From: Hydrolagus colliei
Lineage: Eukaryota
Length of the DNA stretch: 64,000 nucleotides
Direction of reading: 5' to 3'
Assembly: GCA_035084275.1 (NCBI GenBank)
Contig: CM068750.1
Coordinates: 6,014,001 to 6,078,000, forward strand
Below are positions 1-24,876 of this stretch, one piece after another. The translations under genes and the position numbers were made by a program. How positions within the stretch are numbered: position 1 is the stretch's first letter; each line of letters opens with the position of its first letter. A model generated the notes under the pieces. The model saw only the letters and a program-made list of their open reading frames with translations. It was not told where the DNA came from and ran no database searches.

Positions 1-3000
1 CCTTCAATGTTTACTTCAGCTGAACCTGCCTCCACATCCATCGTTGGTATGTTGATATCAGCCTCTGGAACCTTCATGGCCGCTGATACATCAGGAAGGG
101 TTATGTCAATTTGAGGTTTACTGAGGCTTACGTCTGCATCAAATTCACCTTTCACTTTGGGAAGACTTACATTAAGATCCAATTTAGGAGCTTTTATATC
201 GGGTGCAGAAATTCCAAATTTGGGCATCTTCATATGGGGCATTTTGAATTTTCCTTTTGCTCCTCCAATATCTACATCAGGAGCCTCTACACTGACATCC
301 AATGACGGTACTTGTAGATCAATCTCAGGTCCCTTGATATGTCCTTCAGCTGTGGGCAGTTTAACGTCAATGTCTGGCTTTTTCAGACTGAGATCCACCT
401 CAGGGCCTTTAAACTTTGGCATTGAAATCCCAAATTGTGGCATTTTTACTGTTGGCAATTTGAACTTGCCATCTGGGCCTTCAACATTCAGTTCAGTGTC
501 AAGATCCACTGTTGGTGCCTGGATATCAATCTCAGGTCCCTTCATCTGTCCTTTAGCTTTGGGCAGTGTAATGTCAATGTCTGGCTTGGTCATGCTGAGA
601 TCAACTTCAGGGCCTTTAAACTTTGGCATTGAAATCCCAAAATGTGGCATTTTTACTGTTGGCAACTTGAATTTGCCATCTGGGCCTTCAATGTTTACTT
701 CAGCTGAACCTGCCTCCATATCCATCGTTGGTATGTTGATATCAGCCTCTGGAACCTTCATGGCCGCTGATACATTAGGACGGGTTACGTCAATTTGAGG
801 TTTACTGAGGCTTACGTCTGCATCAAATTCACCTTTCACTTTGGGAAGACTTACGTCAAGATCGAATTTGGGAACTTTTCTGTCGGGTGCAGAAAGTCCA
901 AATTTGGGCATCTTGATATGGGGCATTTTGAATTTTCCTTTTGCTCCTCCAATATCTACATCAGGAGCCTCTACACTGACGTCCAATGACGGTACTTGTA
1001 CATCAATCTCAGGTCCCTTGATATCTGCTTTTGCTTTGGGATGTGTAATTTCAATGTCTCGCTTTTTCAAACTGAGATCAACTTCGGGGCCTTTAAATTT
1101 CGGCATAGAAATACCAAAATGTGGCTTCTTAACCTTTGGAATTTTAAACTTTCCATCGGGACCTTCAATGTTTAGCTCTGCTGAACCAGTGTCAAGATCC
1201 ACTGTTGGTGCCTGGATATCAATCTCAGGTCCCTTGATATGTCCTTCAGCTTTGGGCAGTTTAATGTCAATGTCTGGCTTGGTCAAGCTGATATCAACTT
1301 CAGGGCCTTTAAACTTTGGCATTGAAATCCCAAAATGTGGCATTTTTACTGTTGGCAACTTGAATTTGCCATCTGGGCCTTCAATGTTTACTTCCGCTGA
1401 ACCAGGTTCCAAATCCATCGTTGGTATGTTGATTTCAGCCTCTGGAACCTTCATGGCCGCTGATACATCAGGAAGGGTTATGTCAATTTGAGGTTTACTG
1501 AGGCCTACGTCTGCATCAAATTCACCTTTCACTTTGGGAAGACTTACATCAAGATCCAATTTAGGAGCTTTTATATCGGGTGCAGAAATTCCAAATTTGG
1601 GCATCTTCATATGGGGCATTTTGAATTTTCCTTTTGCTCCTCCAATATCTACATCAGGAGCCTCTAAATTGACATCCAATGACGGTACTTGCACATCAAT
1701 CTCAGGTCCCTTGATATCTGCTTTTGCTTTGGGAAGTGTAATTTCAATGGCTGGCTTTTTCAAACTGAGATCAATTTCAGGGCCTCTAAATTTCGGCATA
1801 GAAATACCAAAATGTGGCTTCTTAACCTTTGGAATTTTAAATTTGCCATCGGGACCTTCAATGTTCAGTTCAGCTGAACCAGTGTCAAGATCCACTGTTG
1901 GTGCATGGATATCAATCTCAGGTCCCTTCATCTGTCCTTCAGCTTTTGGCAGTTTAATGTTAATGTCTGGCTTCGTCATGCTGAGATCAACTTCAGGGCC
2001 TTTAAACTTTGGCATTGAAATCCCAAAATGTGGCATTTTTACTGTTGGCAACTTGAATTTGCCATCTGGGCCTTCAATGTTTACTTCAGCTGAACCTGCC
2101 CTCACATCCATCGTTGGTATGTTGATATCAGCCTCTGGAACCTTCATGGCCACTGATACAGCAGGAAGGGTTGTGTCAATTTGAGGTTCACTGAGGCTCA
2201 TGTCTGCATCAAATTCACCTTTCACTTTGGGAAGGCTTACGTCAAGATCCAATTTGGGAGCTTTTATATCGGGTGCAGAAATTCCAAATTTGGGCATCTT
2301 CATATGGGGCATTTTGAATTTTCCTTTTGCTCCTCCAATATCTACATCAGGAGCGTCTACATTGACATCCAATGACGGTACTTGTACATCAATCTCAGGT
2401 CGTTTGATATGTCCTTTAGCTGTGGGCAGTTTAACGTCAATGTCTGGCTTTTTCAGACTGAGATCCACCTCAGGGCCTTTAAACTTTGGCATTGAAATCC
2501 CAAAATGTGGCACTTTTACTGTTGGCAATTTGAACTTGCCATCTGGGCCTTCAACATTCAGTTCAGTGTCAAGATCCACTGTTGGTGCCTGGATATCAAT
2601 CTCAGGCCCCTTCATCTGTCCTTTAGCTTTGGGCAGTTTAATGTCAATGTCTGGCTTGGTCATGCTGAGATCAACTTCAGGGCCTTTAAACTTTGGCATT
2701 GAAATCTCAAAATGTGGCATTTTTACTGTTGGCAACTTGAATTTGCCATCTGGGCCTTCAATGTTTACTTCCGTTGAACCTGCCTCCAAATCCATCGTTG
2801 GTATGTTGATTTCAGCCTCTGGAACCTTCATGGCCGCTGATACATCAGGAAGGGTTATGTCAATTTGAGGTTTACTGAGGCTTACGTCTGCATCAAATTC
2901 ACCTTTCACTTTGGGAAGACTTACGTCAAGATCCAATTTGGGAGCTTTTATATCGGGTGCAGAAATTCCAAATTTGGGCATCTTCATATGGGGCATTTTG

Positions 3001-6000
3001 AATTTTCCTTTTGCTCCTCCAGTATCTATATCAGGAGCCTCTACACTGACATCCAATGACAGTACTTCTACATCAATCTCAGGTCCCTTGATATCTGCTT
3101 TTGCTTTGGGAAGTGTAATTTCAATGTCTGGCTTTTTCAAACTGAGATCAATTTCAGGGCCTTTAAATTTTGGCATAGAAATACCAAAATGTGGCTTCTT
3201 AAACTTTGGAATTTTAAATTTGCCATCGCGACCTTCCATGTTCAGTTCAGCTGAACCAGTGTCAAGATCCACTGTTGGTGCATGGATATCAATCTCAGGT
3301 CGCTTGATGTGTCCTTCTGCTTTGGGCAGTTTAATGTCAAGGTCTGGCTTGGTCATGCTGATATCAACTTCAGGGCCTTTAAACTTTGGCATTGAAATCC
3401 CAAAATGTGGCATTTTTACTGTTGGCAACTTGAATTTGCCATCTGGGCCTTCAATGTTTACTTCCGCTGAACCTGCCTCCAAATCCATCGTTGGTATTTT
3501 GATTTCAGCCTCTTGAACCTTCATGGCCGCTGATACATCAGGAAGGGTTATATCAATTTGAGGTTTACTGAGGCTTACGTCTGCATCAAATTCACCTTTC
3601 ACTTTGGGAAGACTTACGTCAAGATCCAATTTGGGAGCTTTTATATCGGGTGCAGAAATTCCAAATTTGGGCATCTTGATGTGGGGCATTTTTAATTTTC
3701 CTTTTGCTCCTCCAATATCTCCATCAGGAGCCTCTACACTGACATCCAATGACGGTACTTGTACATCAATCTCACGTCCCTTGATATGTCCTTCAGCTGT
3801 GGGCAGTTTCATGTCAATGTCTGGCTTTTTCAGACTAAGATCCACCTCAGGGCCTTTAAACTTTGGCATTGAAATCCCAAAATGTGGCATTTTTACTGTT
3901 GGCAATTTGAACTTGCCATCTGGGCCTTCAACATTCAGTTCAGTGTCAAGATCCACTGTTGGTGCCTGGATATCAATCTCAGGTCCCTTGATCTCTCCTT
4001 TAGCTTTGGGCAGTTTAACGTCAATGTCTGGCTTTTTCAAACTGAGATCAGCTTCAGGGCCTTTAAACTTTGGCATTGAAATCCCAAAATGTGGCATTTT
4101 TACTGTTGGCAACTTGAATTTGCCATCTGGGCCTTCAATGTTTACTTCCGCTGAACCTGCCTCCAAATCCATCGTTGGTATGTTGATTTCAGCCTCTGGA
4201 ACCTTCATGGCCGCTGATACATCAGGAAGGGTTATGTCAATTTGAGGTTTACTGAGGCTTACGTCTGCATTAAATTCACCTTTCACTTTGGGAAGACTTA
4301 CGTCAAGATCCAATTTGGGAGCTTTTATATCGGGTGCAGAAATTCCAAATTTGGGCATCTTCATATGGGGCATTTTGAATTGTCCTTTTGCTCCTCCAAT
4401 ATGTACATCAGGAGCGTCTACATTGACGTCCAATGACGGTACTTGTACATCAATCTCAGGTCCCTTGATATGTCCTTCAGCTGTGGGCAGTTTCACGTCA
4501 ATGTCTGGCTTTTTCAGACTAAGATCCACCTCAGGACCTTTAAACTTTGGCATTGAAATCCCAAAATGTGGCATTTTTACTGTTGGCAATTTGAACTTGC
4601 CATCTGGGCCTTCAACATTCAGTTCAGTGTCAAGATCCACTGTTGGTGCCTGGATATCAATCTCAGGTCCCTTCATCTGTCCTTTAGCTTTGGGCAGTTT
4701 AATGTCAATGTCTGGCTTGGTCATGCTGAGATCAACTTCAGGGCCTTTAAACTTTGGCATTGAAATCCCAAAATGTGGCATTTTTACTGTTGGCAACTTG
4801 AATTTGCCATCTGGGCCTTCAATGTTTACTTCCGCTGAACCTGCCTCCAAATCCATCGTTGGTATGTTGATTTCAGCCTCTGGAACCTTCATGGCCGCTG
4901 ATACATCAGGAAGGGTTATGTCAATTTGAGGTTTACTGAGGCTTACGTCTGCATCAAATTCACCTTTCACTTTGGGAAGACTTACGTCAAGATCCAATTT
5001 GGGAGCTTTTATATCGGGTGCAGAAATTCCAAATTTGGGCATCTTCATATGGGGCATTTTGAATTTTCCTTTTGCTCCTCCAGTATCTACATCAGGGGGC
5101 TCTACACTGACATCCAATGACGGTACTTGTACATCAATCTCAGGTCCCTTGATATCTGCTTTTGCTTTGGGAAGTGTAATGTCAATGTCTGGCTTTTTCA
5201 AACTGAGATCAATTTCAGGGCCTTTAAATTTTGGCATAGAAATACCAAAATGTGGCTTCTTAACCTTTGGAATTTTAAATTTGCCATCGGGACCTTCAAT
5301 GTTCAGTTCAATTGAACCAGTGTCAAGATCCACTGTTGGTGCATGGATATCAATCTCAGGTCCCTTGATCTCTCCTTTAGCTTTGGGCAGTTTAACGTCA
5401 ATGTCTGGCTTTTTCAAACTGAGATCAGCTTCAGGGCCTTTAAACTTTGGCATTGAAATCCCAAAATGTGGCATTTTTACTGTTGGCAACTTGAATTTGC
5501 CATCTGGGCCTTCAATGTTTACTTCCGCTGAACCTGCCTCCAAATCCATCGTTGGTATGTTGATTTCAGCCTCTGGAACCTTCATGGCCGCTGATACATC
5601 AGGAACGGTTATGTCAATTTGAGGTTTACTGAGGCTTACGTCTGCATCAAATTCACCTTTCACTTTGGGAAGACTTACGTCAAGATCCAATTTGGGAGCT
5701 TTTATATCGGGTGCAGAAATTCCAAATTTGGGCATCTTCATATGGGGCATTTTGAATTGTCCTTTTGCTCCTCCAATATGTACATCAGGAGCGTCTACAT
5801 TGACGTCCAATGACGGTACTTGTACATCAATCTCAGGTCCCTTGATATGTCCTTCAGCTGTGGGCAGTTTCACGTCAATGTCTGGCTTTTTCAGACTAAG
5901 ATCCACCTCAGGACCTTTAAACTTTGGCATTGAAATCCCAAAATGTGGCATTTTTACTGTTGGCAATTTGAACTTGCCATCTGGGCCTTCAACATTCAGT

Positions 6001-9000
6001 TCAGTGTCAAGATCCACTGTTGGTGCCTGGATATCAATCTCAGGTCCCTTCATCTGTCCTTTAGCTTTGGGCAGTTTAATGTCAATGTCTGGCTTGGTCA
6101 TGCTGAGATCAACTTCAGGGCCTTTAAACTTTGGCATTGAAATCCCAAAATGTGGCATTTTTACTGTTGGCAACTTGAATTTGCCATCTGGGCCTTCAAT
6201 GTTTACTTCCGCTGAACCTGCCTCCAAATCCATCGTTGGTATGTTGATTTCAGCCTCTGGAACCTTCATGGCCGCTGATACATCAGGAAGGATTATGTCA
6301 ATTTGAGGTTTACTGAGGCTTACGTCTGCATCAAATTCACCTTTCACTTTGGGAAGACTTACGTCAAGATCCAATTTGGGAGCTTTTATATCGGGTGCAG
6401 AAATTCCAAATTTGGGCATCTTCATACGGGGCATTTTGAATTTTCCTTTTGCTCCTCCAGTATCTACATCAGGGGCCACTACACTGACATCCAATGACGG
6501 TACTTGTACATCAATCTCAGGTCCCTTGATATCTGCTTTTGCTTTGGGAAGTGTAATGTCAATGTCTGGCTTTTTCAAACTGAGATCAATTTCAGGGCCT
6601 TTAAATTTCGGCATAGAAATACCAAAATGTGGCTTCTTAACCTTTGGAATTTTAAATTTGCCATCGGGACCTTCAATGTTCAGTTCAACTGAACCAGTGT
6701 CAAGATCCACTGTTGGTGCATGGATATCAATCTCAGGTCCCTTGATCTCTCCTTTAGCTTTGGGCAGTTTAACGTCAATGTCTGGCTTTTTCAAACTGAG
6801 ATCAGCTTCAGGGCCTTTAAACTTTGGCATTGAAATCCCAAAATGTGGCATTTTTACTGTTGGCAACTTGAATTTGCCATCTGGTCCTTCAATGTTTACT
6901 TCCGCTGAACCTGCCTCCAAATCCATCGTTGGTATGTTGATTTCAGCCTCTGGAACCTTCATGGCCGCTGATACATCAGGAAGGGTTATGTCAATTTGAG
7001 GTTTACTGAGGCTTACGTCTGCATCAAATTCACCTTTCACTTTGGGAAGACTTACGTCAAGATCCAATTTGGGAGCTTTTATATCGGGTGCAGAAATTCC
7101 AAATTTGGGCATCTTCATATGGGGCATTTTGAATTGTCCTTTTGCTCCTCCAATATCTACATCAGGAGCGTCTACATTGACGTCCAATGACGGTACTTGT
7201 ACATCAATCTCAGGTCCCTTGATATGTCCTTCAGCTGTGGGCAGTTTCACGTCAATGTCTGGCTTTTTCAGACTAAGATCCACCTCAGGACCTTTAAACT
7301 TTGGCATTGAAATCCCAAAATGTGGCATTTTTACTGTTGGCAATTTGAACTTGCCATCTGGGCCTTCAACATTCAGTTCAGTGTCAAGATCCACTGTTGG
7401 TGCCTGGATATCAATCTCAGGTCCCTTCATCTGTCCTTTAGCTTTGGGCAGTTTAATGTCAATGTCTGGCTTGGTCATGCTGAGATCAACTTCAGGGCCT
7501 TTAAACTTTGGCATTGAAATCCCAAAATGTGGCATTTTTACTGTTGGCAACTTGAATTTGCCATCTGGGCCTTCAATGTTTACTTCCGCTGAACCTGCCT
7601 CCAAATCCATCGTTGGTATGTTGATTTCAGCCTCTGGAACCTTCATGGCCGCTGATACATCAGGAAGGGTTATGTCAATTTGAGGTTTACTGAGGCTTAC
7701 GTCTGCATCAAATTCACCTTTCACTTTGGGAAGACTTACGTCAAGATCCAATTTGGGAGCTTTTATATCGGGTGCAGAAATTCCAAATTTGGGCATCTTC
7801 ATATGGGGCATTTTGAATTTTCCTTTTGCTCCTCCAGTATCTACATCAGGGGGCTCTACACTGACATCCAATGACGGTACTTGTACATCAATCTCAGGTC
7901 CCTTGATATCTGCTTTTGCTTTGGGAAGTGTAATGTCAATGTCTGGCTTTTTCAAACTGAGATCAATTTCAGGGCCTTTAAATTTTGGCATAGAAATACC
8001 AAAATGTGGCTTCTTAACCTTTGGAATTTTAAATTTGCCATCGGGACCTTCAATGTTCAGTTCAATTGAACCAGTGTCAAGATCCACTGTTGGTGCATGG
8101 ATATCAATCTCAGGTCCCTTGATCTCTCCTTTAGCTTTGGGCAGTTTAACGTCAATGTCTGGCTTTTTCAAACTGAGATCAGCTTCAGGGCCTTTAAACT
8201 TTGGCATTGAAATCCCAAAATGTGGCATTTTTACTGTTGGCAACTTGAATTTGCCATCTGGGCCTTCAATGTTTACTTCCGCTGAACCTGCCTCCAAATC
8301 CATCGTTGGTATGTTGATTTCAGCCTCTGGAACCTTCATGGCCGCTGATACATCAGGAACGGTTATGTCAATTTGAGGTTTACTGAGGCTTACGTCTGCA
8401 TCAAATTCACCTTTCACTTTGGGAAGACTTACGTCAAGATCCAATTTGGGAGCTTTTATATCGGGTGCAGAAATTCCAAATTTGGGCATCTTCATATGGG
8501 GCATTTTGAATTGTCCTTTTGCTCCTCCAATATGTACATCAGGAGCGTCTACATTGACGTCCAATGACGGTACTTGTACATCAATCTCAGGTCCCTTGAT
8601 ATGTCCTTCAGCTGTGGGCAGTTTCACGTCAATGTCTGGCTTTTTCAGACTAAGATCCACCTCAGGACCTTTAAACTTTGGCATTGAAATCCCAAAATGT
8701 GGCATTTTTACTGTTGGCAATTTGAACTTGCCATCTGGGCCTTCAACATTCAGTTCAGTGTCAAGATCCACTGTTGGTGCCTGGATATCAATCTCAGGTC
8801 CCTTCATCTGTCCTTTAGCTTTGGGCAGTTTAATGTCAATGTCTGGCTTGGTCATGCTGAGATCAACTTCAGGGCCTTTAAACTTTGGCATTGAAATCCC
8901 AAAATGTGGCATTTTTACTGTTGGCAACTTGAATTTGCCATCTGGGCCTTCAATGTTTACTTCCGCTGAACCTGCCTCCAAATCCATCGTTGGTATGTTG

Positions 9001-12000
9001 ATTTCAGCCTCTGGAACCTTCATGGCCGCTGATACATCAGGAAGGATTATGTCAATTTGAGGTTTACTGAGGCTTACGTCTGCATCAAATTCACCTTTCA
9101 CTTTGGGAAGACTTACGTCAAGATCCAATTTGGGAGCTTTTATATCGGGTGCAGAAATTCCAAATTTGGGCATCTTCATACGGGGCATTTTGAATTTTCC
9201 TTTTGCTCCTCCAGTATCTACATCAGGGGCCACTACACTGACATCCAATGACGGTACTTGTACATCAATCTCAGGTCCCTTGATATCTGCTTTTGCTTTG
9301 GGAAGTGTAATGTCAATGTCTGGCTTTTTCAAACTGAGATCAATTTCAGGGCCTTTAAATTTCGGCATAGAAATACCAAAATGTGGCTTCTTAACCTTTG
9401 GAATTTTAAATTTGCCATCGGGACCTTCAATGTTCAGTTCAATTGAACCAGTGTCAAGATCCACTGTTGGTGCATGGATATCAATCTCAGGTCCCTTGAT
9501 CTCTCCTTTAGCTTTGGGCAGTTTAACGTCAATGTCTGGCTTTTTCAAACTGAGATCAGCTTCAGGGCCTTTAAACTTTGGCATTGAAATCCCAAAATGT
9601 GGCATTTTTACTGTTGGCAACTTGAATTTGCCATCTGGTCCTTCAATGTTTACTTCCGCTGAACCTGCCTCCAAATCCATCGTTGGTATGTTGATTTCAG
9701 CCTCTGGAACCTTCATGGCCGCTGATACATCAGGAAGGGTTATGTCAATTTGAGGTTTACTGAGGCTTACGTCTGCATCAAATTCACCTTTCACTTTGGG
9801 AAGACTTACGTCAAGATCCAATTTGGGAGCTTTTATATCGGGTGCAGAAATTCCAAATTTGGGCATCTTCATATGGGGCATTTTGAATTGTCCTTTTGCT
9901 CCTCCAATATCTACATCAGGAGCGTCTACATTGACGTCCAATGACGGTACTTGTACATCAATCTCAGGTCCCTTGATATGTCCTTCAGCTGTGGGCAGTT
10001 TCACGTCAATGTCTGGCTTTTTCAGACTAAGATCCACCTCAGGACCTTTAAACTTTGGCATTGAAATCCCAAAGTGTGGCATTTTTACAGTCGGCAATTT
10101 GAACTTGCCATCTGGGCCTTCAACATTCAGTTCAGTGTCAAGATCCACTGTTGGTGCCTGGATATCAATCTCAGGTCCCTTCATCTGTCCTTTAGCTTTG
10201 GGCAGTTTAATGTCAATGTCTGGCTTGGTCATGCTGAGATCAACTTCAGGGCCTTTAAACTTTGGCATTGAAATCCCAAAATGTGGCATTTTTACTGTTG
10301 GCAACTTGAATTTGCCATCTGGGCCGTGAATGTTTACTTCCGCTGAACCTGCCTCCAAATCCATCGTTGGTATGTTGATTTCAGCCTCTGGAACCTTCAT
10401 GGCCGCTGATACATCAGGAACGGTTATGTCAATTTGAGGTTTACTGAGGCTTACGTCTGCATCAAATTCACCTTTCACTTTGGGAAGACTTACGTCAAGA
10501 TCCAATTTGGGAGATTTTATATCGGGTGCAGAAATTCCAAATTTGGGCATCTTCATATGGGGCATTTTGAATTTTCCTTTTGCTCCTCCAGTATCTACAT
10601 CAGGGGGCTCTACACTGACATCCAATGACGGTACTTGTACATCAATCTCAGGTCCCTTGATATCTGCTTTTGCTTTGGGAAGTGTAATGTCAATGTCTGG
10701 CTTTTTCAAACTGAGATCAATTTCAGGGCCTTTAAATTTTGGCATAGAAATACCAAAATGTGGCTTCTTAACCTTTGGAATTTTAAATTTGCCATCGGGA
10801 CCTTCAATGTTCAGTTCAATTGAACCAGTGTCAAGATCCACTGTTGGTGCATGGATATCAATCTCAGGTCCCTTGATCTCTCCTTTAGCTTTGGGCAGTT
10901 TAACGTCAATGTCTGGCTTTTTCAAACTGAGATCAGCTTCAGGGCCTTTAAACTTTGGCATTGAAATCCCAAAATGTGGCATTTTTACTGTTGGCAACTT
11001 GAATTTGCCATCTGGGCCTTCAATGTTTACTTCCGCTGAACCTGCCTCCAAATCCATCGTTGGTATGTTGATTTCAGCCTCTGGAACCTTCATGGCCGCT
11101 GATACATCAGGAACGGTTATGTCAATTTGAGGTTTACTGAGGCTTACGTCTGCATCAAATTCACCTTTCACTTTGGGAAGACTTACGTCAAGATCCAATT
11201 TGGGAGCTTTTATATCGGGTGCAGAAATTCCAAATTTGGGCATCTTCATATGGGGCATTTTGAATTGTCCTTTTGCTCCTCCAATATGTACATCAGGAGC
11301 GTCTACATTGACGTCCAATGACGGTACTTGTACATCAATCTCAGGTCCCTTGATATGTCCTTCAGCTGTGGGCAGTTTCACGTCAATGTCTGGCTTTTTC
11401 AGACTAAGATCCACCTCAGGACCTTTAAACTTTGGCATTGAAATCCCAAAATGTGGCATTTTTACTGTTGGCAATTTGAACTTGCCATCTGGGCCTTCAA
11501 CATTCAGTTCAGTGTCAAGATCCACTGTTGGTGCCTGGATATCAATCTCAGGTCCCTTCATCTGTCCTTTAGCTTTGGGCAGTTTAATGTCAATGTCTGG
11601 CTTGGTCATGCTGAGATCAACTTCAGGGCCTTTAAACTTTGGCATTGAAATCCCAAAATGTGGCATTTTTACTGTTGGCAACTTGAATTTGCCATCTGGG
11701 CCTTCAATGTTTACTTCCGCTGAACCTGCCTCCAAATCCATCGTTGGTATGTTGATTTCAGCCTCTGGAACCTTCATGGCCGCTGATACATCAGGAAGGG
11801 TTATGTCAATTTGAGGTTTACTGAGGCTTACGTCTGCATCAAATTCACCTTTCACTTTGGGAAGACTTACGTCAAGATCCAATTTGGGAGCTTTTATATC
11901 GGGTGCAGAAATTCCAAATTTGGGCATCTTCATACGGGGCATTTTGAATTTTCCTTTTGCTCCTCCAGTATCTACATCAGGGGCCACTACACTGACATCC

Positions 12001-15000
12001 AATGACGGTACTTGTACATCAATCTCAGGTCCCTTGATATCTGCTTTTGCTTTGGGAAGTGTAATGTCAATGTCTGGCTTTTTCAAACTGAGATCAATTT
12101 CAGGGCCTTTAAATTTCGGCATAGAAATACCAAAATGTGGCTTCTTAACCTTTGGAATTTTAAATTTGCCATCGGGACCTTCAATGTTCAGTTCAACTGA
12201 ACCAGTGTCAAGATCCACTGTTGGTGCATGGATATCAATCTCAGGTCCCTTGATCTCTCCTTTAGCTTTGGGCAGTTTAACGTCAATGTCTGGCTTTTTC
12301 AAACTGAGATCAGCTTCAGGGCCTTTAAACTTTGGCATTGAAATCCCAAAATGTGGCATTTTTACTGTTGGCAACTTGAATTTGCCATCTGGTCCTTCAA
12401 TGTTTACTTCCGCTGAACCTGCCTCCAAATCCATCGTTGGTATGTTGATTTCAGCCTCTGGAACCTTCATGGCCGCTGATACATCAGGAAGGGTTATGTC
12501 AATTTGAGGTTTACTGAGGCTTACGTCTGCATCAAATTCACCTTTCACTTTGGGAAGACTTACGTCAAGATCCAATTTGGGAGCTTTTATATCGGGTGCA
12601 GAAATTCCAAATTTGGGCATCTTCATATGGGGCATTTTGAATTGTCCTTTTGCTCCTCCAATATCTACATCAGGAGCGTCTACATTGACGTCCAATGACG
12701 GTACTTGTACATCAATCTCAGGTCCCTTGATATGTCCTTCAGCTGTGGGCAGTTTCACGTCAATGTCTGGCTTTTTCAGACTAAGATCCACCTCAGGACC
12801 TTTAAACTTTGGCATTGAAATCCCAAAATGTGGCATTTTTACAGTCGGCAATTTGAACTTGCCATCTGGGCCTTCAACATTCAGTTCAGTGTCAAGATCC
12901 ACTGTTGGTGCCTGGATATCAATCTCAGGTCCCTTCATCTGTCCTTTAGCTTTGGGCAGTTTAATGTCAATGTCTGGCTTGGTCATGCTGAGATCAACTT
13001 CAGGGCCTTTAAACTTTGGCATTGAAATCCCAAAATGTGGCATTTTTACTGTTGGCAACTTGAATTTGCCATCTGGGCCGTGAATGTTTACTTCCGCTGA
13101 ACCTGCCTCCAAATCCATCGTTGGTATGTTGATTTCAGCCTCTGGAACCTTCATTGCCGCAGATACATCAGGAACGGTTATGTCAATTTGAGGTTTACTG
13201 AGGCTTACGTCTGCATCAAATTCACCTTTCACTTTGGGAAGACTTACGTCAAGATCCAATTTGGGAGCTTTTATATCGGGTGCAGAAATTCCAAATTTGG
13301 GCATCTTCATATGGGGCATTTTGAATTTTCCTTTTGCTCCTCCAGTATCTACATCAGGGGGCTCTACACTGACATCCAATGACGGTACTTGTACATCAAT
13401 CTCAGGTCCCTTGATATCTGCTTTTGCTTTGGGAAGTGTAATGTCAATGTCTGGCTTTTTCAAACTGAGATCAATTTCAGGGCCTTTAAATTTTGGCATA
13501 GAAATACCAAAATGTGGCTTCTTAACCTTTGGAATTTTAAATTTGCCATCGGGACCTTCAATGTTCAGTTCAATTGAACCAGTGTCAAGATCCACTGTTG
13601 GTGCATGGATATCAATCTCAGGTCCCTTGATCTCTCCTTTAGCTTTGGGCAGTTTAACGTCAATGTCTGGCTTTTTCAAACTGAGATCAGCTTCAGGGCC
13701 TTTAAACTTTGGCATTGAAATCCCAAAATGTGGCATTTTTACTGTTGGCAACTTGAATTTGCCATCTGGGCCTTCAATGTTTACTTCCGCTGAACCTGCC
13801 TCCAAATCCATCGTTGGTATGTTGATTTCAGCCTCTGGAACCTTCATGGCCGCTGATACATCAGGAACGGTTATGTCAATTTGAGGTTTACTGAGGCTTA
13901 CGTCTGCATCAAATTCACCTTTCACTTTGGGAAGACTTACGTCAAGATCCAATTTGGGAGCTTTTATATCGGGTGCAGAAATTCCAAATTTGGGCATCTT
14001 CATATGGGGCATTTTGAATTGTCCTTTTGCTCCTCCAATATCTACATCAGGAGCGTCTACATTGACGTCCAATGACGGTACTTGTACATCAATCTCAGGT
14101 CCCTTGATATGTCCTTCAGCTGTGGGCAGTTTCACGTCAATGTCTGGCTTTTTCAGACTAAGATCCACCTCAGGACCTTTAAACTTTGGCATTGAAATCC
14201 CAAAATGTGGCATTTTTACTGTCGGCAATTTGAACTTGCCATCTGGGCCTTCAACATTCAGTTCAGTGTCAAGATCCACTGTTGGTGCCTGGATATCAAT
14301 CTCAGGTCCCTTCATCTGTCCTTTAGCTTTGGGCAGTTTAATGTCAATGTCTGGCTTGGTCATGCTGAGATCAACTTCAGGGCCTTTAAACTTTGGCATT
14401 GAAATCCCAAAATGTGGCATTTTTACTGTTGGCAACTTGAATTTGCCATCTGGGCCGTGAATGTTTACTTCCGCTGAACCTGCCTCCAAATCCATCGTTG
14501 GTATGTTGATTTCAGCCTCTGGAACCTTCATGGCCGCTGATACATCAGGAACGGTTATGTCAATTTGAGGTTTACTGAGGCTTACGTCTGCATCAAATTC
14601 ACCTTTCACTTTGGGAAGACTTACGTCAAGATCCAATTTGGGAGCTTTTATATCGGGTGCAGAAATTCCAAATTTGGGCATCTTCATATGGGGCATTTTG
14701 AATTTTCCTTTTGCTCCTCCAGTATCTACATCAGGGGCCTCTACACTGACATCCAATGACGGTACTTGTACATCAATCTCAGGTCCCTTGATATCTGCTT
14801 TTGCTTTGGGAAGTGTAATGTCAATGTCTGGCTTTTTCAAACTGAGATCAATTTCAGGGCCTTTAAATTTCGGCATAGAAATACCAAAATGTGGCTTCTT
14901 AACCTTTGGAATTTTAAATTTGCCATCGGGACCTTCAATGTTCAGTTCAACTGAACCAGTGTCAAGATCCACTGTTGGTGCATGGATATCAATCTCAGGT

Positions 15001-18000
15001 CCCTTGATCTCTCCTTTAGCTTTCGGCAGTTTAACGTCAATGTCTGGCTTTTTCAAACTGAGATCAGCTTCAGGGCCTTTAAACTTTGGCATTGAAATCC
15101 CCAAATGTGGCATTTTTACTGTTGGCAACTTGAATTTGCCATCTGGGCCTTCAATGTTTACTTCCGCTGAACCTGCCTCCAAATCCATCGTTGGTATGTT
15201 GATTTCAGCCTCTGGAACCTTCATGGCCGCTGATACATCAGGAAGGGTTATGTCAATTTGAGGTTTACTGAGGCTTACGTCTGCATCAAATTCACCTTTC
15301 ACTTTGGGAAGACTTACGTCAAGATCCAATTTGGGAGCTTTTATATCGGGTGCAGAAATTCCAAATTTGGGCATCTTCATATGGGGCATTTTGAATTGTC
15401 CTTTTGCTCCTCCAATATCTACATCAGGAGCGTCTACATTGATGTCCAATGACGGTAATTGTACATCAATCTCAGGTCCCTTGATGTGTCCTTCAGCTGT
15501 GGGCAGTTTCACGTCAATGTCTGGCTTTTTCAGACTAAGATCCACCTCAGGACCTTTAAACTTTGGCATTGAAATCCCAAAATGTGGCATTTTTACTGTT
15601 GGCAATTTGAACTTGCCATCTGGGCCTTCAACATTCAGTTCAGTGTCAAGATCCACTGATGGTGCCTGGATATCAATCTCAGGTCCCTTCATCTGTCCTT
15701 TAGCTTTGCGCAGTTTAATGTCAATGTCTGGCTTGGTCATGCTGAGATCAACTTCAGGGCCTTTAAACTTTGGCATTGAAATCCCAAAATGTGGCTTCTT
15801 AACCTTTGGAATTTTAAATTTGCCATCGGGACCTTCAATGTTCAGTTCAACTGAACCAGTGTCAAGATCCACTGTTGGTGCATGGATATCAATCTCAGGT
15901 CCCTTGATCTCTCCTTTAGCTTTGGGCAGTTTAACGTCAATGTCTGGCTTTTTGAAACTGAGATCAGCTTCAGGGCCTTTAAACTTTGGCATTGAAATCC
16001 CAAAATGTGGCATTTTTACTGTTGGCAACTTGAATTTGCCATCTGGGCCTTCAATGTTTACTTCCGCTGAACCTGCCTCCAAATCCATCGTTGGTATGTT
16101 GATTTCAGCCTCTGGAACCTTCATGGCCGCTGATACATCAGGAAGGGTTATGTCAATTTGAGGTTTACTGAGGCTTACGTCTGCATCAAATTCACCTTTC
16201 ACTTTGGGAAGACTTACGTCAAGATCCAATTTGGGAGCTTTTATATCGGGTGCAGAAATTCCAAATTTGGGCATCTTCATATGGGGCATTTTGAATTGTC
16301 CTTTTGCTCCTCCAATATGTACATCAGGTGCCTCTACTTTGACGTCCAATGACGGTACTTGTACATCAATGTCAGGTTTTTTGATATGTCCTTCAGCTGT
16401 GGGCAGTTTCACGTCAATGTCTGGCTTTTTCAGACTAAGATCCACCTCAGGGCCTTTAAACTTTGGCATTGAAATCCCAAAATGTGGCATTTTTACTGTT
16501 GGCAATTTGAACTTGCCATCTGGGCCTTCAACATTCAGTTCAGTGTCAAGATCCACTGTTGGTGCCTGGATATCAATCTCAGGTCCCTTCATCTGTCCTT
16601 TAGCTTTGGGCAGTTTAATGTCAATGTCTGGCTTGGTCATGCTGAGATCAACTTCAGGGCCTTTAAACTTTGGCATTGAAATCCCAAAATGTGGCATTTT
16701 TACTGTTGGCAACTTGAATTTGCCATCTGGGCCTTCAATGTTTACTTCCGCTGAACCTGCCTCCAAATCCATCGTTGGTATGTTGATTTCAGCCTCTGGA
16801 ACCTTCATGGCCGCTGATACATCAGGAACGGTTATGTCAATTTGAGGTTTACTGAGGCTTACGTCTGCATCAAATTCACCTTTCACTTTGGGAAGACTTA
16901 CGTCAAGATCCAATTTGGGAGCTTTTATATCGGGTGCAGAAATTCCAAATTTGGGCATCTTCATATGGGGCATTTTGAATTTTCCTTTTGCTCCTCCAGT
17001 ATCTACATCAGGGGCCTCTACACTGACATCCAATGACGGTACTTGTACATCAATCTCAGGTCCCTTGATATCTGCTTTTGCTTTGGGAAGTGTAATGTCA
17101 ATGTCTGGCTTTTTCAAACTGAGATCAATTTCAGGGCCTTTAAATTTCGGCATAGAAATACCAAAATGTGGCTTCTTAACCTTTGGAATTTTAAATTTGC
17201 CATCGGGACCTTCAATGTTCAGTTCAACTGAACCAGTGTCAAGATCCACTGTTGGTGCATGGATATCAATCTCAGGTCCCTTGATCTCTCCTTTAGCTTT
17301 GGGCAGTTTAACGTCAATGTCTGGCTTTTTCAAACTGAGATCAGCTTCAGGGCCTTTAAACTTTGGCATTGAAATCCCAAAATGTGGCATTTTTACTGTT
17401 GGCAACTTGAATTTGCCATCTGGTCCTTCAATGTTTACTTCCGCTGAACCTGCCTCCAAATCCATCGTTGGTATGTTGATTTCAGCCTCTGGAACCTTCA
17501 TGGCCGCTGATACATCAGGAAGGGTTATGTCAATTTGAGGTTTACTGAGGCTTACGTCTGCATCAAATTCACCTTTCACTTTGGGAAGACTTACGTCAAG
17601 ATCCAATTTGGGAGCTTTTATATCGGGTGCAGAAATTCCAAATTTGGGCATCTTCATATGGGGCATTTTGAATTGTCCTTTTGCTCCTCCAATATCTACA
17701 TCAGGAGCGTCTACATTGACGTCCAATGACGGTACTTGTACATCAATCTCAGGACCCTTGATGTGTCCTTCAGCTGTGGGCAGTTTCACGTCAATGTCTG
17801 GCTTTTTCAGACTAAGATCCACCTCAGGGCCTTTAAACTTTGGCATTGAAATCCCAAAATGTGGCATTTTTACTGTTGGCAATTTGAACTTGCCATCTGG
17901 GCCTTCAACATTCAGTTCAGTGTCAAGATCCACTGTTGGTGCCTGGATATCAATCTCAGGTCCCTTCATCTGTCCTTTAGCTTTGGGCAGTTTAATGTCA

Positions 18001-21000
18001 ATGTCTGGCTTGGTCATGCTGAGATCAACTTCAGGGCCTTTAAACTTTGGCATTGAAATCCCAAAATGTGGCATTTTTACTGTTGGCAACTTGAATTTGC
18101 CATCTGGGCCTTCAATGTTTACTTCCGCTGAACCTGCCTCCAAATCCATCGTTGGTATGTTGATTTCAGCCTCTGGAACCTTCATGGCCGCTGATACATC
18201 AGGAACAGTTATGTCAATTTGAGGTTTACTGAGGCTTACGTCTGCATCAAATTCACCTTTCACTTTGGGAAGACTTACGTCAAGATCCAATTTGGGAGCT
18301 TTTATATCGGGTGCAGAAATTCCAAATTTGGGCATCTTCATATGGGGCATTTTGAATTTTCCTTTTGCTCCTCCAGTATCTACATCAGGGGCCTCTACAG
18401 TGACATCCAATGACGGTACTGGTACATCAATCTCAGGTCCCTTGATATCTGCTTTTGCTTTGGGAAGTGTAATGTCAATGTCTGGCTTTTTCAAACTGAG
18501 ATCAATTTCAGGGCCTTTAAATTTCGGCATAGAAATACCAAAATGTGGCTTCTTAACCTTTGGAATTTTAAATTTGCCATCGGGACCTTCAATGTTCAGT
18601 TCAACTGAACCAGTGTCAAGATCCACTGTTGGTGCATGGATATCAATCTCAGGTCCCTTGATCTCTCCTTTAGCTTTGGGCAGTTTAACGTCAATGTCTG
18701 GCTTTTTCAAACTGAGATCAGCTTCAGGGCCTTTAAACTTTGGCATTGAAATCCCCAAATGTGGCATTTTTACTGTTGGCAACTTGAATTTGCCATCTGG
18801 GCCTTCAATGTTTACTTCCGCTGAACCTGCCTCCAAATCCATCGTTGGTATGTTGATTTCAGCCTCTGGAACCTTCATGGCCGCTGATACATCAGGAAGG
18901 GTTATGTCAATTTGAGGTTTACTGAGGCTTACGTCTGCATCAAATTCACCTTTCACTTTGGGAAGACTTACGTCAAGATCCAATTTGGGAGCTTTTATAT
19001 CGGGTGCAGAAATTCCAAATTTGGGCATCTTCATATGGGGCATTTTGAATTGTCCTTTTGCTCCTCCAATATGTACATCAGGTGCCTCTACTTTGACGTC
19101 CAATGATGGTACTTGTACATCAATGTCAGGTTTTTTGATATGTCCTTCAGCTGTGGGCAGTTTAACGTCAATGTCTGGCTTTTTCAGACTAAGATCCACC
19201 TCAGGGCCTTTAAACTTTGGCATTGAAATCCCAAAATGTGGCATTTTTACTGTTGGCAATTTGAACTTGCCATCTGGGCCTTCAACATTCAGTTCAGTGT
19301 CAAGATCCACTGTTGGTGCCTGGATATCAATCTCAGGTCCCTTCATCTGTCCTTTAGCTTTGGGCAGTTTAATGTCAATGTCTGGCTTGGTCATGCTGAG
19401 ATCAACTTCAGGGCCTTTAAACTTTGGCATTGAAATCCCAAAATGTGGCATTTTTACTGTTGGCAACTTGAATTTGCCATCTGGGCATTCAATGTTTACT
19501 TCCGCTGAACCTGCCTCCAAATCCATCGATGGTATGTTGATTTCAGCCTCTGGAACCTTCATGGCCGCTGATACATCAGGAACGGTTATGTCAATTTGAG
19601 GTTTACTGAGGCTTACGTCTGCATCAAATTCACCTTTCACTTTGGGAAGACTTACGTCAAGATCCAATTTGGGAGCTTTTATATCGGGTGCAGAAATTCC
19701 AAATTTGGGCATCTTCATATGGGGCATTTTGAATTTTCCTTTTGCTCCTCCAGTATCTGCATCAGGGGCCTCTACACTGACATCCAATGACGGTACTTGT
19801 ACATCAATCTCAGGTCCCTTGATCTCTCCTTTAGCTTTGGGCAGTTTAACGTCAATGTCTGGCTTTTTCAAACTGAGATCAGCTTCAGGGCCTTTAAACT
19901 TTGGCATTGAAATCCCAAAATGTGGCATTTTTACTGTTGGCAACTTGAATTTGCCATCTGGGCCTTCAATGTTTACTTCCGCTGAACCTGCCTCCAAATC
20001 CATCGTTGGTATGTTGATTTCAGCCTCTGGAACCTTCATGGCCGCTGATACATCAGGAAGGGTTATGTCAATTTGAGGTTTACTGAGGCTTACGTCTGCA
20101 TCAAATTCACCTTTCACTTTGGGAAGACTTACGTCAAGATCCAATTTGGGAGCTTTTATATCGGGTGCAGAAATTCCAAATTTGGGCATCTTCATATGGG
20201 GCATTTTGAATTGTCCTTTTGCTCCTCCAATATGTACATCAGGTGCCTCTACTTTGACGTCCAATGATGGTACTTGTACATCAATGTCAGGTTTTTTGAT
20301 ATGTCCTTCAGCTGTGGGCAGTTTAACGTCAATGTCTGGCTTTTTCAGACTAAGATCCACCTCAGGGCCTTTAAACTTTGGCATTGAAATCCCCAAATGT
20401 GGCATTTTTACTGTTGGCAATTTGAACTTGCCATCTGGGCCTTCAACATTCAGTTCAGTGTCAAGATCCACTGTTGGTGCCTGGATATCAATCTCAGGTC
20501 CCTTCATCTGTCCTTTAGCTTTGGGCAGTTTAATGTCAATGTCTGGCTTGGTCATGCTGAGATCAACTTCAGGGCCTTTAAACTTTGGCATTGAAATCCC
20601 AAAATGTGGCATTTTTACTGTTGGCAACTTGAATTTGCCATCTGGGCCTTCAATGTTTATTTCAGCTGAACCTTCCTCCATATCCATCGTTGGTATGTTG
20701 ATATCACTTTCTGAAACCTTCATGCCCGCTGATAAATCAGGAAGGGTTACATCAATTTGGGGTTTACTGAAGCTTACATCTGCATCAAATTCACCTTTCA
20801 CTTTGGGAAGACTTACATCAAGGTCCAATTTGGGACCTTTTACATCAGGTGAAGAAAATCCAAATTTAGGCATCCTGATGTGGGGCATTTTGAATTTTCC
20901 TTTCGCTTCTCCCATGTCTACGTCAGGAGCCTCTACATTGACATCCAATGACGGTACTTGTACATCAATCTCAGGTCCCTTGATATCTGCTTTTGCTTTG

Positions 21001-22400
21001 GGAAGTGTAATTTCAACGTCTGGCTTTTTCAAACTGAGATCAACTTCAGGGCCTTTAAATTTCGGCATAGAAATACCAAAATGTGGCTTCTTAAACTTTG
21101 GAATTTTAAACTTTCCATCGAGACCTTCAATGTTCAGTTCAGCTGAACCAGTGTCAAGATCCATTGTTGGTGCGTGGATATCAATCTCGGGTCCCTTGAT
21201 GTGTCCTTCAGCTTTGGGCAGTTTAACATCAATGTCTGGCTTTTTCAGACTGGGATCCACCTCAGGGCCTTTAAACTTTGGCATTGAAATCCCAAATTGT
21301 GGCGTTTTTACTGTTGGCAATTTGAACTTGCCATCTGGACCTTCAATGTTTACTTGAGCTGAACCTGCCTCCACATCCATCGTTGGCATGCTGATATTAG
21401 CCTCTGGAACCGTCGCTGATTCATCAGGTAGGGTTACGTCAAATTGAGGTTTACTGAGGCTTACGTCTGCTTCAAATTCACCTTTCACTTTGGGCAAACT
21501 CACATCCATTTCAACTTTTGGCAAACTAACATCAATATCCAATTTGGGAGGTTTTACATCAGGTGAAGAAAATCCAAATTTAGGCATCCTCATGTGGGGC
21601 ATTTTGAATTTTCCTTTTGCTCCTCCCGTGTCTACGTCAGGAGCCTCTACATTGATATTCAATGACGGTACTTGTACATCAATCTCAGGTCCCTTGATAT
21701 CTGCTGTTGCTTTCGCAAGTGTAAGGTTAATATCTGGTTTTTTTCGACTGAGATCCACCTCAGGGCCTTTAAATTTTGCCATTGATATCCCAAACTGTGG
21801 CATTTTTACTGTTGGCAACCTGAATTTGCCATCTGGGCCTTCAATGTTTATTTCAGCTGAACCAGTCTCCACATCCATCATTGGTATGTTGATATCTACT
21901 TCTGGAACTTTGATATCCGCTGATACATCAGGCACTGTTACGTCAACTTTGGCTTTTTGAAGGTTTACTTCTGTATCAATTTCACCTTTCAGCTTTTTAC
22001 TTGCATCCACATCTGCTTTTGGCACTTCAGCCTCATGTTTCGATTTGGGAACTTTTATATCAGGTGCAGAAAATCCAATTTTGAGGCCTTTATTGTGGGA
22101 TAGTTTGTATTTTCCTTGTTTTCCACCTATCTTAGCATCTGAAAGCTGCATATCTATTTCCAATGAAGGTATGTCTGTATGTATCTCAGGTCCCTTGATG
22201 CCAAGTTTTGATTTGGTAATTGTAGCATCACTGTTTGCCTTTTTCGAACCTATATCCTCTTCAGTGTCTTTAAACTTTGGCATTGATAAGCCAAAATTTG
22301 GCATTTTTAACTTTGGCATTTTAAACTTTGCATCTAAACCTGCAATGTCTTTTGCAGAACCAATCCCCACTTCCATTGTTGGTGGATGAATTTCAGTCTC
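1..22400 (-). repeat. Coding tandem array: about 31 units of 684 bp (A) or 693 bp (B) between 111 and 21443, with degenerate units to about 22400
   Basis: Unit boundaries at 111, 795, 1488, 2181, 2865, 3558, 4242, 4926, 5619 ... 14565, 15258, 16158, 16842, 17535, 18219, 18912, 19596, 20073, 20757, 21444. Each unit has three KMPxFG-containing submodules of about 69/72, 72 and 87 aa. Confidence 0.97.
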
Positions 22401-23729
22401 TGGATCTTTGATATGCATTGATGCAGCAGGTAGAGTTACTTCAGCTTGGGATTTCGTGGGACTGAAGTGCTCATGTCTTATCTTGGGAAGCGTCTCTTTC
22501 ACTGTGTCTATTTTCAAGGAAACATCAGGATTTTGCATCTGAACAACCCCAATGCTGAATTGACCACCCACCGTGGATGTTTTTGTATCAACTTTGGAGG
22601 CATCATCTGATGGATAAGATATGTCAACGTTTTGAGCCATCACACCAAGTGTAGTCTTTTTAATTTTCTTCTCTTTCTTCAATTTGGTTTTCTTTTGTGC
22701 ATCTTCAATTTTCCCAAAGGCATCTTTGGATGGAGATACCTGGCTGTGTACGTGGGATCCTTTCATTTCTGTTTCAGTACTTTTCAGTGGAATGTTCATA
22801 TCTGGCTGTTTCATGATTATATCTGTTTGAAATGGTTGTAATGTGACATCAGTTGGCACATCGATGCTTTGGTGTTTCATTTGTTCCGTATAGCCAAGTG
22901 TTGAAGAGCCTGCTTTGTCTTTGTGTTGACTCTGTGTTGTTGCCTGCTCTATTGAAAAGTGCAGACTGTCCTTCAATTGTTCAGAAGCTTTAAGAGATAC
23001 ATTTTGTAATTTCTCACCCTCTGCCTTTGGTTGTGAAATTTCGATTGTTTTACTCTCATGGTATTGAAGTGGGAGTGAGTGTGATGTCGCTTCCTGTGGT
23101 AATGCAATGGCATCTTTGGGAGAAATTGTATCCGACATCAAAAATTTAGCAATTTTGAGCTTTGGTATTTTGTATTTTGCTTCTAAGTCCAGATTTGTTT
23201 CTTGTTTTTCATTTTTGGGCTTTTGCTCAGTCGGTTTGACTTCTGTCATTATTTTGTCATCTTTAGTGTTCTGTAATGTTAAATCTACAATTATTTTTGA
23301 ACTGCCTTGTTTTGCTGTTGAAAATTCATTGCTATCTGTGAAAACCATTTGTGTCTCTTCAAGGACCTCTGTCTTTGTACTTGGACCAAGATGTGGAAAT
23401 TTTATTTTTTTTCTTCGTTTCTTTACTTTCTGGGGTGATTCTGACAAATGTAAATGCGATTCTAAATCTGTGCTTGTTACAGTGATTACCTGCTGATCAC
23501 GATCTTCTGTTTCTGGTAAACTGCGAGATCTATCTAATTTGTCCATCTTTGTTTTTCTGCTATCTGGAAATGTAGAGCCAGAAAATGTTATATCTGATAC
23601 CTTAGCAGATTTTGTCGTGCCCTGATTACCCATTTCCTGACATGTTTTTCTGTGTATTTTCATTTCTTCAGAATCAACCAGTTTTGTTTTTTGCTTATAC
23701 AGGTCCGTAAAAATGTCTTCTTTTTCTCC
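1..23729 (-). CDS. AHNAK2: AHNAK2-like giant terminal coding exon (3' end beyond window), at least 7,909 codons; unique linker followed by AHNAK-type repeats
   Basis: Acceptor tttcttcatag|GGAGAA at 23729, phase 0. The minus frame reads GEKEDIFTDLYKQK...DRSRSLPETEDRDQQVITVTSTDLESHL (cf. recalled human AHNAK2 [28 protein letters not shown]), then repeats such as EGPDGKFKLPTVKMPHFGISMPKFKGPEVDLSLKKPDIDVKLP. All unit spacings are multiples of 3. The ORF track lists no closed minus ORF here, consistent with a frame running off the window without a stop. Confidence 0.93.
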
Positions 23730-24694: not shown

Positions 24695-24876
24695 CACAAT
24701 CGATTTAAAGTCTTTCACATCGACTTGCTCAGGTCCTATTGCAGCAGCTGCAGCACTCGGGATCTTTCGCTTCAGGCAGTATTGCATTTTGTATGGTTCG
24801 GAGTACTGCAAAATCTTGAGAGCGTCTTCAAATTTCATTTTATCAAAGTAAACTGTTGCACTGACAAGTTGATCAC
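24695..24876 (-). CDS. AHNAK2: AHNAK2 coding exon, C-terminal half of PDZ domain ([40 protein letters not shown]...)
   Basis: ttccttcag|GT acceptor, GTG|gtaggt donor, 182 nt (phase 1 to 0). Matches recalled human AHNAK2 [33 protein letters not shown]. Confidence 0.95.

What the first reader, a model, noticed from the sequence alone, without database searches (positions are those of the whole stretch)
1..23729. Hidden giant exon: at least 23.7 kb of uninterrupted coding sequence, AHNAK2 of at least about 8,090 aa
Seen: one minus-strand frame from the 23729 acceptor to base 1, in phase with five upstream exons (555 nt). It is absent from the ORF track because it is unterminated. Established: human AHNAK2 is about 5,800 aa with a roughly 18-kb last exon. 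Inference: this orthologue is already much larger before its end is reached, and such exons are often mis-annotated or collapsed.
Basis: partly seen in the sequence, partly recalled or inferred. Interest (0 to 1): 0.7.

Follow-up and report, generated by a model that had tools for sequence, protein, structure and literature searches.

The report
Giant AHNAK2 exon in a chimaera
A stop-free reading frame of at least 23.7 kb encodes the repetitive body of AHNAK2, a known giant scaffold protein, likely from a chimaera fish; it is longer than every relative listed here, but large and variable size is already known for this family, so it is a long member of a known kind rather than a new kind of gene.

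Summary
Confirmed. The minus-strand frame 23729 to 3 has 7,909 codons and no stop. Five GT-AG exons (555 nt) splice onto it in phase, giving at least 8,094 aa (873 kDa). It is AHNAK2: the PDZ scores best against AHNAK2, falls outside the AHNAK and periaxin clades, and the N-terminal exons match AHNAK2 only. The closest relative is the elephant shark, so the source is likely another chimaera.

The exon is a nested tandem array: 69/72/87-aa modules, then 228/231-, 459- and 918-aa periods, nearly identical in the centre and diverged at both edges. The C-terminal tail lies beyond the window, so about 8,700-9,600 aa is predicted.

'Much larger' holds against human (5,795 aa). It barely holds against other vertebrates: 29 of 89 AHNAK2-type records are at least 7,000 aa, the longest 7,914. 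Mouse strains carry 22-33 repeats. Copy number is unverified without reads.

Verdict: new, possibly record-length member of a known family; low to modest interest.

The parts
51155..51209 (-). Coding exon 1 (ATG at 51209), 55 nt; 5' UTR extent unknown
   Evidence: skate AHNAK2 residues 1-19 match at 95%
27731..27783 (-). Coding exon 2, 53 nt
   Evidence: AG/GT bounded; tblastn 68% to skate
27106..27216 (-). Coding exon 3, 111 nt, with the RPRPQGSSPVY motif of AHNAK2 N-termini
25742..25864 (-). Candidate exon 4, 123 nt, phase 0-0, homologous to a shark and ray AHNAK2 coding segment; in-frame TAA at 25831-25829; in-frame ATG at 25756.
   Evidence: local scores 50, 60 and 53 against 3 of 3 shark/ray segments versus a maximum of 32-34 in 657 intronic windows; splice context
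25456..25609 (-). PDZ exon, first half, 154 nt
   Evidence: PDB 4CN0 AHNAK2 E 1.8e-12, 4CMZ periaxin E 3.1e-8; Pfam PDZ above cut-off
24695..24876 (-). PDZ exon, second half, 182 nt
   Evidence: 4CN0 E 5e-13, 4CMZ E 1.2e-11
1..23729 (-). Giant exon, 5' part: 7,909 codons without a stop, open at base 1
22332..23729 (-). Non-repetitive start of the giant exon (466 aa), with a Lys/Arg-rich stretch at about 23429-23400
   Evidence: 366 of 466 identical to P0138; sequence
20640..22331 (-). Older, diverged repeat modules at the 5' edge (modules 4-6 differ 8.4% from consensus)
4125..20639 (-). Homogenised core: 1,377-nt (459-aa) six-module unit, with a 2,754-nt higher period at 14447-4125; 0.5-1.6% from consensus
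1..4124 (-). Diverging 3' edge of the array (3.6% from consensus); C-terminal tail and stop lie beyond the window
   Evidence: P0138 tail has no tblastn match in the window

Best explanation
This is the AHNAK2 gene, likely of a chimaera: five small exons encode the N-terminus and PDZ domain, and one stop-free frame of at least 23.7 kb, likely the last exon, encodes a nested tandem array that likely grew by in-frame unequal crossing-over and gene conversion, making a predicted 8,700-9,600-aa, likely flexible scaffold. Shown: frame, exon phases, PDZ identity, the four-tier repeat, central homogeneity with diverged edges, no stop among 213 variant alleles. Inferred: (1) the array expands and homogenises by unequal exchange in units of 684/693, 1,377 and 2,754 nt while selection removes stops; (2) the size is tolerated because a terminal exon need not be defined across its length; (3) the protein dimerises by PDZ domain swapping, as the human AHNAK2 PDZ does, and the Lys/Asp/Pro-rich repeats act as an extended multivalent docking region at the cell cortex, as reported for AHNAK repeats; (4) length is a loosely constrained, lineage-labile trait rather than a new function.
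For: Frame and splicing. Identity: AHNAK2 outscores periaxin in both PDZ exons and no AHNAK chain appears. The tree of 38 PDZ rows excludes the window from the AHNAK clade (100/100) and the periaxin clade (100/100) and pairs it with Callorhinchus (93/83). Exons 1-3 hit 12 of 12 chosen AHNAK2, 0 of 17 AHNAK and 0 of 8 periaxin records. Array: 92 regular modules; divergence profile 8.4, 1.6, 1.0, 0.5, 3.6% along the array. 78 synonymous, 135 non-synonymous and 0 nonsense alleles, 7.5 nonsense expected, normalised N/S 0.49. 8 of 9 core hexamers are distinct and alternate between two sub-types. Each lineage has its own period: 217 aa in shark and skate, 366 in chicken and crane, 386 turtle, 236-243 lizards, 170 rat, 459 here. 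Mouse Ahnak2 has 22-33 copies across strains (PMC12903361 supplement). Composition K+R 14%, D+E 16%, P 12%, no Trp or Tyr. AlphaFold2 mean pLDDT 27.7.
Against: No reads or transcripts, so copy number and single-exon status are unverified. One 2,285-nt stretch is an exact duplicate and 5.8 kb lacks any unique 31-mer. The PDZ tree does not resolve AHNAK2 as one clade and its periaxins are all catfish or carp. The 12 AHNAK2 records were picked for having the long N-terminus, so that count is partly circular; only 3 of the 8 periaxin records have a long N-terminus. N/S within single module types is only 0.53-0.73, so amino-acid constraint is weak. The fold rested on 8 similar sequences, so low pLDDT is weak evidence for disorder. 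The exon holds 31 donor-like GTRAGT sites. No function was tested.
Confidence: 0.82

Rival explanations
1. The gene is AHNAK2 but the assembly has over-expanded the core, so the true exon is several kb shorter and within the range of other vertebrates.
For: Hexamers starting at 8939 and 6185 are identical over 1,377 nt, inside a 2,285-nt exact duplicate at offset 2,754. No unique 31-mer lies between 10074 and 4301. The nearest relative, P0138, has only about 22 modules and 2,995 aa.
Against: 8 of 9 hexamers are distinct; all 6 compared 2,754-nt pairs differ, by 4-10 nt; variants follow a consistent alternating pattern. Removing one 2,754-nt unit still leaves 20,975 nt and 7,176 aa inside the window (my arithmetic). 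Shark and skate records on 75-87 Mb contigs are 7,146-7,526 aa with similar young cores.
Confidence: 0.12
2. The DNA is right but the 23.7 kb is not one exon in most transcripts: repeat-borne donor sites splice out part of the array, giving shorter main isoforms.
For: 31 GTRAGT sites, about one per 87-aa module, with the same six intron-side bases as the real exon 2 donor. Human AHNAK2 has an 85-kDa isoform (PMC8833689, passages) and AHNAK a 17-kDa one (PMC10682155).
Against: The sites are not enriched over synonymous shuffles (31 versus 33.3 +/- 4.7), and the exon has no acceptor with 8 or more pyrimidines. The frame is kept open throughout with fewer nonsense alleles than expected.
Confidence: 0.1
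3. The gene is periaxin or AHNAK, or a chimaera-specific paralogue, rather than AHNAK2.
For: The second PDZ exon scores close to periaxin (47.6 versus 51.9 bits). Many top repeat hits are named AHNAK. Synteny could not be checked.
Against. All 8 periaxin records carry SARV and LQCAE where the window has SATV and LQYSE. Skate and sevengill shark each have a separate AHNAK record that groups elsewhere.
Confidence: 0.03
4. The repeats fold into regular beta-rich domains (the propeller proposed for human AHNAK2), so extra copies add rigid domains rather than flexible length.
For: Alternating hydrophobic pattern (lag 1 -0.44, lag 2 +0.30). A review relays the beta-propeller prediction, stated there as unproven (PMC8833689).
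Against: All 459 residues have pLDDT under 50 and pTM is 0.12. 12% proline. Unit length changes freely between lineages, whereas beta-propeller repeats are mostly conserved (bioRxiv 2020.02.14.947036, passages).
Confidence: 0.15

Closest known systems
Human AHNAK2 (5,795 aa; PDZ structure 4CN0)
   Same: N-terminal PDZ, small 5' exons plus one giant exon, central repeats. The review gives six small exons and one of about 17,559 bp; here five coding, one stop-bearing and one giant.
   Different: At least 40% longer. Unit is a 228/231-aa trimer nested in 459- and 918-aa periods, not 24 x 165 aa. One small exon carries a stop.
Elasmobranch AHNAK2: Heptranchias P0001 (7,526 aa, named AHNAK-like), Amblyraja P0002 (7,146 aa)
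   Same: Top two repeat hits; skate is the best N-terminal match, 64% over 194 aa; both have young homogenised cores.
   Different: 217-aa period. Exon 4 segment is coding in skate. Repeats only 35-45% identical to the window.
P0138, 2,995 aa, unnamed; PDZ identical to Callorhinchus milii record P0121, so inferred elephant shark AHNAK2
   Same: Same five-exon N-terminus (168 of 185), same 72- and 87-aa module types, 79% identity in the unique part.
   Different: About 22 modules instead of more than 95; longest exact repeat 38 aa versus 761; no young core. Truly short or collapsed, not decidable here.
AHNAK (desmoyokin) and periaxin
   Same: Related PDZ and related Lys/Pro/Asp repeats; ranked 1 and 8 for fast repeat evolution in vertebrates.
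   Different: Separate PDZ clades; neither matches exons 1-3.

Membership tests
AHNAK2 | N-terminal PDZ closest to AHNAK2 | tested here: met
   4CN0 best in both exons; 64-90% to shark, chimaera and tetrapod AHNAK2-type PDZ, 54-56% to teleost AHNAK2-type, 62-64% to fish periaxin, 34-52% to AHNAK
AHNAK2 | Pre-PDZ N-terminus with the MCDCF start and RPRPQGSSPV motif | tested here: met
   12 of 12 selected AHNAK2, 0 of 17 AHNAK, 0 of 8 periaxin records; pattern taken from records
AHNAK2 | Several small exons followed by one giant coding exon | tested here: met
   (DNA level only; no transcript)
AHNAK2 | Central tandem repeats homologous to AHNAK-family repeats | tested here: met
   215 hits, the named ones largely AHNAK or AHNAK2; Atlas top hits are AHNAK clusters at 0.91-0.92, weak evidence given recognition 856
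AHNAK2 | Monophyly with AHNAK2 to the exclusion of periaxin | tested here: inconclusive
   Window is outside the periaxin clade (100/100), but AHNAK2 groups form an open fork with it
AHNAK2 | Non-repetitive C-terminal domain and stop | not testable with these tools
   Lies beyond base 1; P0138 tail has no match in the window
AHNAK2 | Conserved synteny | not testable with these tools
   No neighbouring gene found in the window; no vertebrate genome collection on hand
AHNAK2 | Domain-swapped PDZ homodimer | not tested
   Known for the human domain through review passages; the primary paper was not held
AHNAK (AHNAK1) | PDZ at the very N-terminus, within the AHNAK clade | tested here: not met
   11 AHNAK rows form a 100/100 clade without the window
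Periaxin | PDZ within the periaxin clade, with its diagnostic residues | tested here: not met
   only catfish and carp periaxins plus PDB 4CMZ were compared

The most novel reading that the evidence does not exclude
This is the longest AHNAK2 on record, with a single coding exon of about 26-28 kb, beyond the largest human exons of a 2012 survey (over 21 kb internal, 22 kb terminal). It arose by a recent three-tier expansion in one chimaera lineage while the elephant shark kept an unexpanded protein of about 3,000 aa, a threefold natural size difference within chimaeras. In the same lineage a shark coding exon became a stop-bearing switch between a long N-terminus and a short start just before the PDZ.
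Probability: 0.3. Interest if true: 0.5.

Novelty: new member of a known kind. Interest (0 to 1): 0.27.

Why it matters
It is mainly an annotation point: a gene of about 0.9-1 MDa that ORF tracks miss at window edges and that short reads would collapse. If read-verified, it sets an upper mark for AHNAK2 length and gives a clean record of concerted evolution inside one coding exon. If the elephant shark form is truly about 3,000 aa, the pair tests whether repeat number matters for function. It does not reveal a new kind of gene or mechanism.

Tried and rejected
1. AlphaFold2 on one 459-aa unit gave pLDDT 27.7; no fold search was run on it. AF2 can also mislead on near-perfect repeats (PMC11795689, abstract).
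2. Pfam matches in the repeats (DUF6801, DUF7406, Mga, LmeA) had 0 passing stretches and were rejected as summed noise.
3. The roughly 230-aa plus-strand ORFs over 115-22389 are antisense shadows broken once per trimer (49 stops); rejected as genes.
4. Six other ORFs of 120-220 aa had no Pfam match; Rfam found nothing in 23730-64000.
5. A search for long relatives by the unique part of the exon returned 5 proteins, the longest 7,526 aa, and missed the skate record, so it is insensitive.
6. Whether any AHNAK-family protein above 8,000 aa is in the database stays open: 95 of 215 hits were not listed, and a length ceiling cannot be excluded because the longest protein fetched in any call is 7,914 aa.
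7. The source name of P0138 stays unconfirmed.
8. Enrichment or depletion of cryptic donors was not supported.
9. Nine paper searches listed no study of AHNAK2 size in cartilaginous fishes; only the listed rows were seen.
Full report
OBSERVATION. A six-frame scan finds one minus-strand frame from 23729 to 3, 7,909 codons, no stop, open at the window edge. The other five frames over the interval hold 49-922 stops. The codon before it is TAG, whose AG is the acceptor behind a pyrimidine tract. Five GT-AG exons at 51209-51155, 27783-27731, 27216-27106, 25609-25456 and 24876-24695 total 555 nt and splice in phase to 8,094 aa, 873 kDa, with no stop. I looked for exon 1 with a start motif recalled from memory; it was then confirmed independently, since the skate AHNAK2 N-terminus recovers all five exons by tblastn.

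IDENTITY. Each PDZ exon scores best against the AHNAK2 structure 4CN0 (51.9 and 49.4 bits), then periaxin 4CMZ (47.6 and 36.4); no AHNAK chain is among the 2 and 33 rows. Against 114 named long relatives (120 listed of 215 hits; 6 unnamed rows dropped), the spliced N-terminus matches skate AHNAK2 best, 64% over 194 aa. In a tree of 38 PDZ domains the 11 AHNAK rows and the 7 periaxin rows each form 100/100 clades without the window, which pairs with Callorhinchus at 93/83. AHNAK2 itself is not resolved as one clade, and the periaxins are all catfish or carp. Exons 1-3 match 12 of 12 AHNAK2 records chosen for a long N-terminus, 0 of 17 AHNAK and 0 of 8 periaxin records. The gene is AHNAK2. The nearest sequences are the Callorhinchus PDZ record (90%) and P0138, an unnamed 2,995-aa protein whose PDZ is identical to it. 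With 168 of 185 and 366 of 466 identities in non-repeat parts, the window is likely a chimaera other than the elephant shark. That is inference.

ANATOMY OF THE EXON. After 466 non-repetitive codons come more than 95 modules. The 92 regular ones are 30 of 87 aa (L), 16 of 69 (a), 15 of 72 (b) and 31 of 72 (c). They form trimers of 228 or 231 aa, a six-module unit a-c-L-b-c-L of 459 aa (1,377 nt), and in 14447-4125 a 918-aa (2,754-nt) period in which two hexamer sub-types alternate. Divergence from consensus along the array is 8.4, 1.6, 1.0, 0.5 and 3.6%. A uniform centre with older edges is what unequal exchange and conversion produce (established knowledge, recalled). Among 213 distinct variant alleles 78 are synonymous, 135 non-synonymous and none a stop, where 7.5 were expected; normalised N/S is 0.49, and 0.53-0.73 within single module types. 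The frame is protected but residues are weakly constrained; copies are not independent, so these are rough figures. The rising divergence at the left edge suggests the array ends soon. The non-repetitive tail of P0138 has no match in the window. Adding the 627-1,518 residues that follow in P0138, or the 723 in the sevengill shark, predicts 8,700-9,600 aa and about 26-28 kb of coding exon; the skate record has only 249 and would give about 8,350.

IS THE LENGTH REAL? 8 of 9 perfect hexamers are distinct and all 6 compared 2,754-nt pairs differ by 4-10 nt. One 2,285-nt stretch is an exact duplicate and 5.8 kb has no unique 31-mer. Short reads would collapse this region, and one spurious 2,754-nt unit cannot be excluded without reads; even then 20,975 nt remain.

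IS THE LENGTH SURPRISING? Human AHNAK2 has 5,795 aa and a large exon of about 17,559 bp (PMC10682155, passages). Of the 114 named records, 89 are AHNAK2-type, 17 AHNAK-type and 8 unclassified; among the 89 (isoforms counted separately, search limited to 4,349-13,841 aa) 54 exceed human, 29 reach 7,000 aa, 11 reach 7,500 and the longest is 7,914. Each lineage has its own period and a young core. Mouse Ahnak2 has 22-33 copies of a 171-173-aa unit across strains (PMC12903361, passages and one supplement row; file 13 not searched). AHNAK and PRX rank 1 and 8 for fast repeat evolution, with gene-prediction problems noted (bioRxiv 10.1101/2020.02.14.947036, passages). So the window is longer than every listed relative, but the phenomenon is known. 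A record claim is not secure: 95 hits were not listed and the database may cap length. The exon already exceeds the largest human internal (over 21,000 nt) and terminal (22,000 nt) exons of a 2012 survey, which also says terminal exons have no size restriction (PMC3467050, passages); newer annotations were not checked. The one striking contrast is P0138: about 22 modules, longest exact repeat 38 aa, 3% covered by repeated 30-mers against 80% here. It is either a truly unexpanded relative or a collapsed model. A whale shark record of 1,758 aa poses the same question.

A MISSED EXON. Skate, bamboo shark and Narcine records carry 33-38 extra residues between exon 3 and the PDZ. The window has a 123-nt, phase 0-0, AG/GT-bounded segment at 25864-25742 that aligns to all three with scores 50-60, against a maximum of 32-34 in 657 intronic windows. 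It has an in-frame TAA at 25831-25829, no in-frame acceptor with a good pyrimidine tract after the stop, and an in-frame ATG at 25756. A Met-Ser/Asn/Thr lies within 16 residues before the PDZ in 40 of 72 AHNAK2-type records, and two shark records begin there. P0138 skips the segment. It may be a dead exon, a poison exon or the start of a short-N isoform. The five-exon model remains the open-frame isoform.

MECHANISM. Shown: gene structure, PDZ identity and repeat hierarchy. Inferred from family knowledge: PDZ domain-swapped dimers (review passages in PMC8833689 and PMC7072810; primary paper not seen), and repeats as a signalling scaffold, as for AHNAK repeats binding Smads (PMC4180639, passages). 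The repeats are a balanced polyampholyte with 12% proline and no Trp or Tyr. AlphaFold2 gives no fold (pLDDT 27.7, 8-sequence alignment), weakly favouring a flexible chain over the proposed propeller; an alternating hydrophobic pattern keeps a beta-rich state possible. The exon carries 31 donor-like GTRAGT sites, no more than synonymous shuffles give, and no strong acceptor; internal splicing is unlikely but use of a donor towards a downstream exon is untested. PMC12581843 (passages) lists AHNAK2 among genes with many called loss-of-function variants on T2T and adds nothing on length.

VERDICT. Real, correctly identified, and a new long member of a known family whose size is known to vary. Nine searches listed no paper on AHNAK2 size in cartilaginous fishes (listings only). 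Interest 0.27.

Noticed in passing
window 25864-25742 (-): Homologue of a shark and ray AHNAK2 coding exon, splice sites intact, with an in-frame TAA and a downstream in-frame ATG: dead, poison or alternative-start exon.
   Followed up: partly
window 20816-131 (-), about one per 87-aa module: 31 GTRAGT donor-like sites inside the giant exon, most paired 39 nt downstream with a GTAAGC; not enriched over synonymous shuffles; no strong acceptor in 23.7 kb.
   Followed up: partly
P0138 and P0124: Short complete-looking AHNAK2 records (2,995 and 1,758 aa) with almost no near-identical repeats: truly unexpanded or collapsed.
   Followed up: partly
P0001, P0019, P0123 and several teleost records: Records named AHNAK, AHNAK-like or periaxin-like have AHNAK2-type PDZ domains or N-termini, so database names in this family are unreliable.
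   Followed up: yes
window 115-22389 (+): A ladder of roughly 230-aa plus-strand ORFs, the antisense shadow of the repeat; could be mistaken for genes.
   Followed up: yes
window 3-23729 (-): ATTAAA is rarer than in synonymous shuffles (19 versus 44 +/- 5) while AATAAA is not (4 versus 4.7); repeat copies are not independent, so this may mean nothing.
   Followed up: no
window 60500-61800: GC-rich minisatellite of about 27-29-nt units flanked by CpG-rich ends that look inverted by eye; possibly a non-autonomous mobile element.
   Followed up: no
window 24620-63071, introns and upstream: 23 merged blocks (3,357 nt) of sequence repeated within the window, mostly short and SINE-like by eye; family not identified.
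   Followed up: no
window 27784-51154: First coding intron of 23.4 kb; no Rfam match in 23730-64000 and no Pfam match for six ORFs tested.
   Followed up: partly
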